Virus record (IMG/VR): IMGVR_UViG_2648501143_000006
From: a virus
Taxonomy: Duplodnaviria; Heunggongvirae; Uroviricota; Caudoviricetes
Strand: one strand, 5' to 3'
Length of the DNA: 20,639 nt
Shown here: positions 9,001-12,000 of the stretch, piece after piece
Layout: each line of letters begins with the position of its first letter
Position numbering within the stretch: position 1 is the first letter of the stretch
Position numbers: made by a program

Positions 9001-12000
9001 TGGTGAGTTTTCGAGAAGCCATTTGCAGAATAATCGATGTCCTTGCAGTGCATATTCACCACGGAATCCGGGGTCGTACACCGCATGGCATTCAACAACG
9101 CTATGCCAGAAGTTACGCACTTCATGAACGCCAGCCAGCACTAATCCTTCGTAGATGCCGAGATATACCGCATCAGGCTTGATGTAGTACGTGTGCCCCG
9201 GCTCAACAATATTTTCGGTATTGCCTGGCTCGTTAAGAAAGGCCTGTAATCGCACAGGGTTATCAATAAATTTTAGTTCCATGCGATGTCATCCATTTTC
9301 ACATACAGCCTGCCAGCGCCTTATCTATTAACCCTCGTGCAATTTCATGCAGAGTTGGCGCTACTCCAATTCCTGATTTTTTACGCTGCTCTTCCTGAAT
9401 TTTCTTTATCGCTTCCATTTGCTTCTCACTTATCAATACCGGCTTTACTGAAATAGCCATAACGCCCCCTTAGAACTGTATAAAACAACAGTTATTATAG
9501 TTTCACAAATCGCAATATTCATCATCGTAATTGCAAAATATGAAACAAATAGCACAAAAAAATGCCACCGCTCAGTAGCTGGTGGCATCGTTCTGTGTGT
9601 CAGGTTTTGACAGGTTTTTTATGGACTCTAAAAACTATATTTATGGTGTCGCATTACTCTTCACGGCAGGCGCTTTTCAGTTCTGCCCTTGCTTCTTGCT
9701 CCATTGGTAATTTGATTCGCGATCATCTATGCGGATGGTTTGCTGAACAGGCATAACAACATCTCAGAGGCTATTTTTTGAACTACGAAAATTTCGTAGT
9801 GCTCACCTTCAAAAACGTCACGCCCCTTGTACACTGGATTTTACAAAAGTCTCGTAAAACTCTTTGCTGTTCTGGGCTATGTGCCAAACCGCAGCGAATA
9901 CCTCCGTCTGCCAGATGAGCAAAACATACCTTATAAAGAAAATCGCTGTTTTTGCTGTACCACCTGTACCACCATGTCACAAACCCTTGTGTGGCGAGGC
10001 CTGCAGGTGGTACAGGTGGGTAAAAATGACCTCTCCCCACCTGTACAGACCTGTACCATTTATTTAATTTTTACCCATAGCAGCACATAATCCCTTTTTT
10101 GAAATATTGAAAAATGCGTTCATTCTTCCCGCTGGCTTAACCTTGTAGCCGCTTGCCACCATCGCCGCAATAAATGCTCCGTTGGGGATATAGTGCGGGT
10201 GATCACTGTGCTGGTGGTTTATCTGGTTATATCGCTCCACTTCATGCTTCAACATGTCAGATGTGGGGTTATCCTGCGGGAAGCTCTCAATCTGGGCATT
10301 ACTCATCCCGTTGTCTCTGATCCATCTCAGGCAGCTTTTCGCCGATACGATAAATGACGGGTTATCAAGCGGGTTTTCCCAGTCCGCATTCCGGTTGTGG
10401 AGCGCCAGTCCGTCAAGGTTAAATTGTGGGTATTCAGCGGTAATTACTGTCACTGCGTGGCGGATTTCAGTCTCGTCACAACATGGCTTATCTCCCACAC
10501 CAGCAGGGTAATAATCTGAACCACCGGGACTGATACAGCTTTTACCACTGAAAGGCCATTGCTTCGCCATTTCGGGTGTTGAGTGATTACCGTCGCTCCG
10601 TTCGCGCTGTGCCTCTGTCCACTGGCTGGCATATTCAGTAAATGAAACCCTTTGCCCCTGGCGCATCCAGTGCGCAATCATAATTAAAGTGCGTTCCAGA
10701 CTTTGGATGTCGCCAGCATTCCCGCACTGTGTAGCGAAACTTTTTAATTCTTCGCGCTCCGTTCTGGTCATTCCCTGCGGTATGCAATAGTTATTGTTCA
10801 TGTTTTACCTCTCTGATTTCTGCTGCCATATCTGTTGGCTCTATACAGCCGTCCCGACTTGCCACGCAGGGAATAATGATTTCAACGGTATCGCCGTCAA
10901 TACACATTTCAACATTCGCCCATGCCGCAATGGGTAGCCAGTCTGAACGCCCCTCAAACCGTAGCTGCCAGCCAGAGGAAGAAGCTAACTGGCGCACTTT
11001 GTAAAATGGTGTGCTCATCATTGGTTGTTTCCTCTCAGCCAGCCAGAAGAAATGCGTTTGTTAATGGTATAGGTGGTACAGGTCTGGTATAGGTAAGATA
11101 TTGACCTGTACCACTATAACGCACTGTTTTTAATACTGAATTAGCAAAGTGGTATAGGTGGTACAGGTAAAAACGATCTTCTTGTAAAAAGACTATATTA
11201 AAAAACATCATATCCCCCCATACCGATCAGACGGGCAAACGCAGCCTGTAGAACTCCGACCTCTGGTAGTTCGTAGAACACGCCATTCCCTCGGTCTGGT
11301 CTTCCATGCTTCACCAGCCCCATTTGTGCAAGTGATTTACCCAGTAGTGATCTGGCTGCTGGCTCTTTAAGCTTTTCCCCACGCTCAAGCGACCACGCTA
11401 CAAATCGACTAACCATATCCTTTGCAAACAAACGGACTTCGCCATTAAACGGAGGTTCATTGATTAGCTCGCCATAAAGAAACAATTCAACGCCAGACAG
11501 CCCCAGCAAGATTTCTTCACGTAAGGCATCGGTCTGTGGCGCTCGTTGAGGGTCAAAACCTGAGAGATCCACCCCTTTAAGATGCCAAAGCAACTTTGCG
11601 GCACCGCCATCATTAAGCCAACTGTACAGCCGATCAAAATACTCCCGGCTCTGTGCTTTTTCAGGAGATGGCTCAAGCACGAGATAGCGGCGCTCTCTTA
11701 TCCCTGCCTGTAATACCTGTGTGCTGTTACTGGCAAATATCAACCGGGCAAAATTCGGCATTGGTTCAGCATCAATTCCCTTGCGCTCAAGGTTAAACGT
11801 CGGTTCGCTAATAATCGCTTTAAGTCTGTCAGCTTCAGACGGCTTGTGGATCGTCACTTCGTCAGCAAATACCAGTAGCTTGTTAGCAAGTATTGAATTG
11901 AAGCGCCCTGAAATATGTCCCGCCCCGTTAATGTGGGCGGCGTACTGCCCCAGTATTTGCAGCAGCGGTTTAACCGTTGTGCCTTTCCCTGTGCCCGGGA

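What the first reader, a model, noticed from the sequence alone, without database searches (positions are those of the whole stretch)
9956..11168. Two iteron clusters bracketing a 76-aa plus 245-aa module next to the primase
At least six copies of a GGTGGTACAGGT core occur in two clusters about 1 kb apart, one with a 14-bp inverted pair and one with 19-bp direct repeats and an adjacent AT-rich stretch. They sit directly downstream of the primase-helicase gene, an arrangement reminiscent of P4 ori and crr. The two genes between them have no recognisable function and could be replication accessory or cargo genes.
Basis: partly seen in the sequence, partly recalled or inferred. Interest (0 to 1): 0.5.

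Follow-up and report, generated by a model that had tools for sequence, protein, structure and literature searches.

The report
Split P4-style replication origin of satellite
The two repeat clusters are most likely the two mirror-image halves of the replication origin of a phage-parasitic island in E. coli, built like the origin of satellite phage P4 and sitting next to a P4-like primase-helicase; this is an ordinary kind of element in a slightly unusual layout, with two conserved genes of unknown function between the halves.

Summary
The 9-bp core TGGTAYAGG occurs 10 times exactly in 20.6 kb, and 9 of those copies lie in two clusters: A at 9954-10058 and B at 11065-11167.

The window is a sibling of EcCIMP1, a published E. 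coli phage-inducible chromosomal island. Its replication module has been swapped.

Cluster B starts 31 bp after the stop of a P4-alpha-like primase-helicase. It has the same copy number, orientation and spacing as the annotated P4 ori: 3 direct copies, 1 inverted, about 35 bp of AT-rich DNA, then 2 direct. Cluster A is a slightly decayed mirror image of B.

In a Tatumella island the same two mirrored halves lie only 33 bp apart. Here a 76-aa and a 245-aa gene sit between them.

The motif, layout and gene trio are conserved in Raoultella and Buttiauxella. Related layouts occur in Xenorhabdus and Arsenophonus. In about 70 related loci the iteron sequence changes with the helicase and C-terminal domain class.

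The primase C-terminus models as a winged helix. The 245-aa protein matches nothing of known function.

Verdict: an iteron origin of the P4 kind, a new member of a known kind. No binding or replication was tested.

The parts
11198..13552 (-). P4-alpha-like primase-helicase (784 aa), the presumed initiator. It has a Zn-ribbon, a TOPRIM domain, an SF3 helicase (DUF5906) and a C-terminal winged-helix domain.
11065..11167 (.). Cluster B, the origin half next to the primase. It has six TGGTAYAGG iterons: 11065>, 11074>, 11085>, 11105<, 11150>, 11159> on the + strand.
   Evidence: Same layout and spacing as P4 ori and as the first origin half in Tatumella L031. Iteron columns are 81% invariant against 41% for other intergenic columns across three genera.
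11114..11149 (.). AT-rich spacer inside cluster B, a candidate unwinding region. It contains TTAAAAACA, which is conserved in Raoultella and Buttiauxella.
   Evidence: This is an inference from position and composition only.
11168..11197 (.). AT-rich stretch between the outermost iteron pair and the primase stop codon.
   Evidence: GC about 0.30. P4 ori has an equivalent A/T tract outside its tandem pair.
10791..11021 (-). 76-aa gene of unknown function. It is found only with this primase clade.
   Evidence: No Pfam, PHROG, NCBIfam or PADLOC hit. Homologues follow the primase in Raoultella (86%), Buttiauxella (61%) and Xenorhabdus (45%).
10064..10801 (-). 245-aa gene of unknown function, a fusion of two domains that also exist as separate small proteins.
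9954..10058 (.). Cluster A, the mirrored second origin half (crr-like). Copies: 9954< (1 mismatch), 9963<, 10008>, 10039< (degenerate), 10050<.
   Evidence: Its layout is the reverse complement of cluster B with one copy decayed. The Buttiauxella counterpart keeps the full 3+1+2 set. Iteron columns are 81% invariant against 21% for other columns.
9861..12714 (.). Extent of the exchangeable replication module: the helicase and C-terminal part of the primase, both clusters and both genes.
   Evidence: In the sibling islands L002 and EcCIMP1 this block is replaced by a DUF927 helicase with its own GTTGGTTCA origin. The flanks stay 97-99% identical.

Best explanation
The two clusters are the two mirror-image halves of the vegetative replication origin of an EcCIMP1-type phage-inducible chromosomal island. 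Each half is an iteron module of the P4-ori type.

Proposed mechanism, inferred rather than shown:
- After the helper phage induces the island and it excises, the island's P4-alpha-like primase-helicase binds the TGGTAYAGG iterons through its C-terminal winged-helix domain.
- It opens the adjacent AT-rich DNA, loads itself as an SF3 helicase and lays down primers.
- Host polymerase then replicates the circle.
- The second, mirrored half acts as a P4-crr-like partner site, either as a second loading site or by looping to the first.

The 76-aa and 245-aa genes lie inside the origin. They run in the same direction as the primase, with no terminator in between, so they are probably read on the same transcript.

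What is shown: the repeats, their layout, their conservation, and the way they change with the helicase class. What is inferred: binding, unwinding, any requirement for both halves, and any role of the two genes.
For: 1. The repeats are far above chance and confined to two clusters.

2. Cluster B begins 31 bp after the primase stop. It matches the annotated P4 ori in copy number, orientation, spacing and the AT-rich gap.

3. The two halves are mirror images. Offsets from the primase stop, in gene orientation, are 31> 40> 85< 105> 116> 125> | genes | 1140< (1151<) 1182> 1227< 1236<. Tatumella L031 has 21> 29> 76< 96> 107> 117> then, after 33 bp, 150< 160< 171< 182> 227< 235<.

4. Almost all of about 70 alpha-like primase loci carry an iteron array starting 20-45 bp after the stop. 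There are three helicase classes, each with its own iteron family. Within a class the motif shifts as the C-terminal 160 aa diverge.

5. Multi-copy TGGTACAGG occurs only in loci with this helicase clade.

6. Sibling islands with the same backbone but a DUF927 helicase have GTTGGTTCA iterons at the same position.

7. Both halves are conserved in Raoultella (primase 75% identical) and Buttiauxella (64% in its best aligned segment). Iteron columns are 81% invariant, against 21-41% for the surrounding intergenic DNA.

8. Arsenophonus keeps an A-type half right after the primase, without either small gene. The iterons therefore follow the primase, not the 76-aa or 245-aa protein.

9. The primase has the P4 alpha domain order, and its C-terminus models as a winged helix. 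Published work describes a winged-helix origin-binding domain at the C-terminus of P4 alpha (PMC2777425, citing Yeo et al. 2002).
Against: - No experiment was done, and the EcCIMP1 paper says nothing about an origin.
- The C-terminal domain shows no detectable sequence homology to the P4 alpha origin-binding domain. There is no Pox_D5 hit, and hhalign gives a probability of 0.1%. The link is at fold-class level only.
- In Xenorhabdus the layout differs: the strong cluster lies between the two genes, and only two weak copies follow the primase. The 'both halves bracket both genes' arrangement is therefore not universal.
- Cluster A has lost one copy in E. coli and could be a decaying duplicate rather than a required site.
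- The 76-aa protein co-occurs with the motif in four of the five genera examined. It cannot be fully excluded as a binder.
Confidence: 0.75

Rival explanations
1. The repeats are operator sites. They control transcription of the 76-aa and 245-aa genes, or autoregulate the primase operon, rather than starting replication.
For: Cluster B lies in the 176-bp gap just upstream of the 76-aa gene. Iterons of plasmid and P4-type replicons commonly double as regulatory sites (general knowledge).
Against: - No sigma-70-like promoter was found in cluster B on the gene strand.
- Cluster A lies downstream of the operon, where an operator makes little sense.
- The layout copies the P4 ori, and the same arrays follow primase genes that have no downstream small genes (L002, L012).
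Confidence: 0.1
2. The repeats are bound by the 76-aa protein, for example as a copy-number or partition-like factor, and not by the primase.
For: Homologues of the 76-aa gene are found only in loci with the TGGTACAG motif: Escherichia, Raoultella, Buttiauxella and Xenorhabdus.
Against: - Arsenophonus L012 keeps the motif in the A-type layout next to a primase of the same clade but has no 76-aa homologue.
- In the two other helicase classes the iterons change with the helicase, and no such small gene is present.
Confidence: 0.08
3. The two clusters are terminal inverted repeats of a small mobile cassette that inserted the two genes next to the primase.
For: A 24-nt, 88% complementary inverted pair (9949-9972 and 11149-11172) flanks the two genes (I1).
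Against: - There is no transposase or recombinase among the two genes.
- There is no target-site duplication at the flanks (sequence).
- In E. coli the module is found only in this island context, with a median of one place per genome.
- Homologues of the 245-aa gene in L003 and L004 lack these repeats.
- Xenorhabdus has a cluster between the two genes.
- The 'arms' are internally structured like the P4 ori.
Confidence: 0.02

Closest known systems
Satellite phage P4 replication system: alpha primase-helicase with ori and crr (GenBank X51522 annotation)
   Same: - The initiator has Zn-ribbon primase, TOPRIM and SF3 helicase (DUF5906) in the same order, and the N-terminal third is 33% identical.
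- The iterons are 8-9 bp long with 9-11 bp phasing.
- One half-unit has 3 direct copies, 1 inverted, about 35 bp AT-rich, then 2 direct, in the same orientation relative to the gene.
- A second iteron cluster exists, and one cluster lies just after the primase stop.
- The outer tandem pairs face away from each other and are flanked by A/T tracts.
   Different: - The iteron sequence is GGTGGTACAGG, not GGTGAACAG.
- The C-terminal domain has no Pox_D5 or D5_N hit and no detectable homology to the alpha origin-binding domain.
- Here the ori-like unit, not the crr, adjoins the primase, and the partner is 1.1 kb away, not about 4.7 kb.
- The partner is a single mirrored copy, not two direct 120-bp repeats.
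- The island is not a P4-like satellite: no psu, sid or delta is annotated, and it carries P22-type ejection genes instead.
EcCIMP1, an E. coli phage-inducible chromosomal island mobilised by the P22-like phage Kapi1 (Pick et al. 2025, PMC11773190)
   Same: The backbone and gene order are the same, largely at 93-99% nucleotide identity to the close EcCIMP1 relative L002. It includes AlpA, AntA/B, Ash, the primase N-terminal third, the gp14 (DUF2824) and gp7 genes of the P22-like ejection-gene block, and PerC.
   Different: EcCIMP1 has a DUF927-type helicase, lacks the 76-aa and 245-aa genes, and has GTTGGTTCA iterons instead. The paper does not describe an origin.
Origins of staphylococcal and Gram-negative PICIs, with iterons flanking an AT-rich region just 3' of the pri/rep genes (general knowledge; see PMC9371898 for the helicases)
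   Same: The origin is placed immediately after the replicase gene. Sets of iterons in opposite orientation surround AT-rich DNA. Initiator and iterons match each other.
   Different: The initiator family differs. Here the two iteron sets are separated by two genes rather than by a short spacer.

Membership tests
P4-type origin (ori/crr with alpha-like initiator) | Short iterons in both orientations, clustered at two or more sites on the replicon | tested here: met
   Eleven copies lie in two clusters. Counts are far above shuffled controls.
P4-type origin (ori/crr with alpha-like initiator) | The ori unit has 3 direct copies, 1 inverted, about 35 bp AT-rich, then 2 direct, with 9-11 bp phasing | tested here: met
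   Cluster B starts at 11065, 11074, 11085, 11105(inverted), 11150, 11159. P4 ori starts at 9310, 9320, 9331, 9353(inverted), 9396, 9406.
P4-type origin (ori/crr with alpha-like initiator) | The initiator combines Zn-ribbon/TOPRIM primase and SF3 helicase in one protein | tested here: met
   Pfam domains are in the same order as in P4 alpha. BLASTP gives E = 1e-40 over the primase part. hhalign gives 65% probability over the helicase core.
P4-type origin (ori/crr with alpha-like initiator) | A C-terminal winged-helix origin-binding domain homologous to that of alpha (Pox_D5, PDB 1KA8) | tested here: inconclusive
P4-type origin (ori/crr with alpha-like initiator) | The iteron sequence is the P4 type 1 repeat TGTTCACC | tested here: not met
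   The core here is TGGTAYAGG (longer form GGTGGTACAGGT). It shares only GGTG..ACAG with P4.
P4-type origin (ori/crr with alpha-like initiator) | The initiator binds the iterons, and both sites are needed in cis for replication | not testable with these tools
   This needs gel-shift or footprinting assays and plasmid replication assays.
P4-like satellite (as defined by de Sousa and Rocha, PMC8628076) | The core set psu, delta, sid, alpA, epsilon (ash), alpha (PF03288) and integrase | tested here: not met
   Integrase, AlpA, Ash and a primase are present. No Psu, Sid or Delta is annotated, and the primase lacks PF03288. Not every ORF was scanned for these profiles.
EcCIMP1-like PICI | An integrase, alpA, antA, ash, primase, P22-type ejection genes, perC backbone syntenic with EcCIMP1 | tested here: met
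   Most of the backbone is 93-99% identical to L002, a close EcCIMP1 relative. The gene content is the same as in NZ_CP139039.
Transposable cassette or MITE | Terminal inverted repeats with a target-site duplication, a mobility gene or multiple dispersed copies | tested here: not met
   An inverted pair exists (I1). There is no duplication at the flanks, no mobility gene, and E. coli copies occur only in this island context.

The most novel reading that the evidence does not exclude
The origin may be an obligately split, mirror-symmetric bipartite origin whose halves must pair. Pairing would loop out the enclosed genes, so that initiator binding and expression of the 76-aa and 245-aa genes would be mechanically coupled.

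The enclosed proteins would then be a new class of satellite replication or copy-number factors. The 245-aa family, or its N-domain alone, sits just downstream of the origin in islands with three unrelated replicases: the DUF5906 type, the P4-alpha type and the RepA/AAA_25 type. That placement would fit a general, replicase-independent accessory role.
Probability: 0.15. Interest if true: 0.55.

Novelty: new member of a known kind. Interest (0 to 1): 0.3.

Why it matters
It gives a concrete, testable origin for a widespread but barely studied group of E. coli phage satellites. About 130 of the 5,426 complete E. coli genomes carry this replication module, and about 340 more carry the DUF927 sibling.

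It shows that these islands exchange the helicase, the origin-binding domain and the iterons as one cassette. One such exchange left a non-cognate origin half behind in this window.

It also singles out a two-gene unit, and a two-domain protein family of unknown function, that repeatedly sits at satellite origins. These are reasonable first targets for knock-outs. None of this changes current understanding of how such elements replicate.

Tried and rejected
- **Transposon-end reading.** Rejected: no target duplication, no mobility gene, no dispersed copies, and the repeats occur without the genes or between them in other genera.
- **Homology of the primase C-terminus to the P4 alpha origin-binding domain.** hhalign found none. 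Only the fold class could be established.
- **Island H26 as a possible recombinant to map the specificity determinant.** It turned out to be a truncated, decayed copy.
- **Known RNA families in 9300-11400.** Only two sub-threshold microRNA matches, taken as chance.
- **Promoter and terminator scan.** No promoter in cluster B and no terminator between the primase and the 76-aa gene.
- **Open-access papers describing P4 ori/crr.** Two searches found nothing useful; one failed on a term that was too short. The GenBank X51522 feature table was used instead.
- **Psychromonas L045.** It showed no comparable motif and was not pursued.

Full report
**1. The observation**

The window was read directly. 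The 12-mer GGTGGTACAGGT occurs four times exactly. With up to two mismatches it occurs 12 times, against 0.82 expected, and none of 100 dinucleotide-preserving shuffles reaches 12.

The shorter core TGGTAYAGG has 10 exact copies in 20.6 kb, and 9 of them lie in two clusters.
- Cluster B, + strand: 11065>, 11074>, 11085>, 11105<, a 35-bp AT-rich gap, 11150>, 11159>. A further AT-rich stretch runs up to the primase stop at 11198.
- Cluster A: 9954< (one mismatch), 9963<, a 36-bp gap, 10008>, 10039< (degenerate), 10050<.

The gene positions are as stated.

**2. The element**

The window matches E. coli chromosomes at 99% identity. RefSeq annotation and Pfam scans give this gene content: integrase, AlpA, AntA/B antirepressor, Ash, DUF4222, a primase-helicase, the two small genes, P22-type gp14, gp7, gp20 and gp16-like ejection genes, and PerC.

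This is the make-up of EcCIMP1, a phage-inducible chromosomal island. EcCIMP1 has been shown to excise and to be transduced by the P22-like phage Kapi1 (PMC11773190). That paper does not mention an origin or iterons.

EcCIMP1 itself and about 340 E. coli genomes carry a sibling form. In that form the primase has a DUF927 helicase half and the 76-aa and 245-aa genes are absent. The two forms are 97-99% identical on both sides of the block 9861-12714. That block holds the helicase and C-terminal part of the primase, both repeat clusters and both genes, so it behaves as one exchangeable replication module.

**3. Comparison with the sibling form**

In the sibling island L002, the DNA just after the primase stop carries three GTTGGTTCA copies, a 43-bp AT-rich spacer and three inverted copies. 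A different helicase half therefore goes with a different iteron at the same position.

**4. Comparison with P4**

The GenBank record of P4 (X51522) annotates ori and crr with their type 1 repeats.
- The P4 ori copies start at 9310, 9320 and 9331 in one direction, 9353 inverted, then 9396 and 9406.
- Cluster B has the same count, the same orientation pattern and nearly the same spacings: 9, 11, 20, 45, 9 against 10, 11, 22, 43, 10.
- Cluster B also has the same orientation relative to the primase gene strand.
- Both P4 sites and both clusters here contain the sub-unit 'two tandem copies, 43-45 bp, one inverted copy'. In each case the outer tandem pairs are flanked by A/T tracts and face away from each other.

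The window primase and P4 alpha share Zn_Ribbon_Prim, Toprim_3 and DUF5906 in the same order. They are 33% identical over the first 335 residues (E = 1e-40). P4 alpha additionally hits D5_N and Pox_D5, which the window protein does not.

**5. Wider comparison**

A scan of one genome per species returned 80 loci with related primases. A script located each primase stop and the most repeated 9-mer downstream.
- Nearly every locus with an intact gene has an iteron array that starts 20-45 bp after the stop.
- The helicase halves fall into three classes, each with its own iteron family. The P4-alpha type has GGTGAACAG-like iterons, the DUF927 type has GTTGGTTCA-like iterons, and the window type has GGTGGTACAG.
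- Within a class the motif drifts as the C-terminal 160 residues diverge.
- Multi-copy TGGTACAGG is found only in loci of the window type.

**6. Mirror symmetry**

Offsets from the primase stop, in gene orientation:
- Window: 31> 40> 85< 105> 116> 125>, then the two genes, then 1140< (1151<) 1182> 1227< 1236<.
- Tatumella L031 (P4-alpha type): 21> 29> 76< 96> 107> 117>, then after only 33 bp, 150< 160< 171< 182> 227< 235<.

The window therefore has the same two mirrored halves as Tatumella, with about 1 kb of coding DNA between them. Other loci vary on this arrangement:
- Buttiauxella L009 keeps both halves complete, about 1.05 kb apart, around homologues of both genes.
- Raoultella L005 does the same.
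- In Xenorhabdus the strong, A-type half lies between the two genes, and only two weak copies follow the primase.
- Arsenophonus L012 has an A-type half right after the primase and neither small gene.
- L002 has its two mirrored GTTGGTTCA halves 8 kb apart.

Across Escherichia, Raoultella and Buttiauxella, iteron columns are 81% invariant. Other intergenic columns are 41% invariant in cluster B and 21% in cluster A.

**7. The presumed binding domain**

Published work describes a C-terminal winged-helix origin-binding domain in P4 alpha (PMC2777425, citing Yeo et al. 2002).

**8. The two genes**

The 76-aa protein has no family match. It occurs only with this primase clade.

The 245-aa family is small and confined to Enterobacterales. 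A confident model (pLDDT 88) has no significant structural neighbour.

A full HMM search shows that it is a fusion of two domains that also exist as separate proteins of about 95 aa and about 130 aa. All of these fall in PHROG families of unknown function.
- Full-length homologues follow a RepA/AAA_25 helicase and a CTCCCCACTTT iteron array in two other islands. One of these is a capsid-forming PICI.
- Stand-alone N-domain homologues follow the origin in two P4-alpha-type islands.

This position is consistent with a replication-linked role but does not prove one. Because the protein is found with three unrelated iteron types, it is unlikely to be the iteron reader.

**9. Interpretation**

The best reading is a P4-type iteron origin in two mirrored halves, served by the adjacent alpha-like primase-helicase.

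Three alternative readings were considered: operator sites, binding sites for the 76-aa protein, and transposon ends. Each explains fewer of the facts and is contradicted at specific points, which are given in the rival explanations. No promoter was found in cluster B, and no terminator lies between the primase and the 76-aa gene. No known RNA family matches.

The finding is a new member of a known kind. Its layout, with two genes inside the origin, is a modest variation on P4, where ori and crr are also separated by genes.

**10. Limits**

Everything about binding, unwinding, the need for both halves, and the role of the two genes is inference. The comparative set for the window-type clade is small: five genera.

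Noticed in passing
window 1676-1787: This is a second, different origin-like cluster. It has five exact GTTGGTTCA copies: two direct, a 43-bp AT-rich gap, then three inverted. It lies between perC and the next gene. GTTGGTTCA is the iteron of the DUF927-type helicase of sibling islands, which carry one such cluster here and a mirrored one next to their primase. In this window the matching helicase is absent, so the cluster is an orphan left by the replicon swap.
   Followed up: partly
window 9861-12714, compared with L002 9161-11267: The helicase and C-terminal part of the primase, both clusters and both small genes are exchanged as one block between otherwise 97-99% identical islands. 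The right-hand breakpoint lies inside the primase gene, near residue 280.
   Followed up: yes
window 4624-9282: The island carries homologues of the P22 ejection and head-completion genes: DUF2824/gp14, gp7, gp20 (Inj_translocase) and a 701-aa gp16-position protein. It has no capsid or terminase genes. The EcCIMP1 paper notes this but does not explain it.
   Followed up: no
window 9775-9812: A 38-bp stretch containing the palindrome CTACGAAAATTTCGTAG is 100% identical in Klebsiella phage phiKp_30 and in unrelated E. coli loci, where it lies inside genes annotated as hypothetical.
   Followed up: no
L003 8612-9796 and L004 8719-9693: Homologues of the 245-aa protein (about 66% identical) sit just after a RepA/AAA_25 helicase gene in two other islands. 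In L004 a dense CTCCCCACTTT iteron array lies between the two genes, and in L003 the intervening gap holds only a single inverted pair of the same motif. The homologue is followed by ProQ/FinO in L003 and by SSB then ProQ/FinO in L004. L004 is a capsid-forming island with terminase, portal and capsid genes.
   Followed up: partly
L016 6266-6547 and L031 6316-6519: Stand-alone homologues of the N-terminal domain of the 245-aa protein (57-59% identical) lie just downstream of the origin in two islands with P4-alpha-type primases.
   Followed up: no
L070 (Yersinia pekkanenii), 27-286 and 1208-1488 bp after the primase stop: There are two complete direct copies of a 10-11-copy TGAACCAAC iteron array, 1.18 kb apart. 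This could be a duplicated origin or the junction of tandem islands.
   Followed up: no
L089 (NZ_CP022912) 4364-6277: This is a decayed copy of the island. The primase is truncated to 259 aa, but both repeat clusters and both small genes are intact.
   Followed up: partly
window 11038-11051 and 10967-10980; L007 5495-5521 and 5952-5978: A CTGGCTGGC-type sequence just upstream of the 76-aa start codon is repeated inside that gene. In Xenorhabdus, a 27-nt leader is repeated upstream of both small genes. This may be a shared translation or regulatory signal.
   Followed up: no
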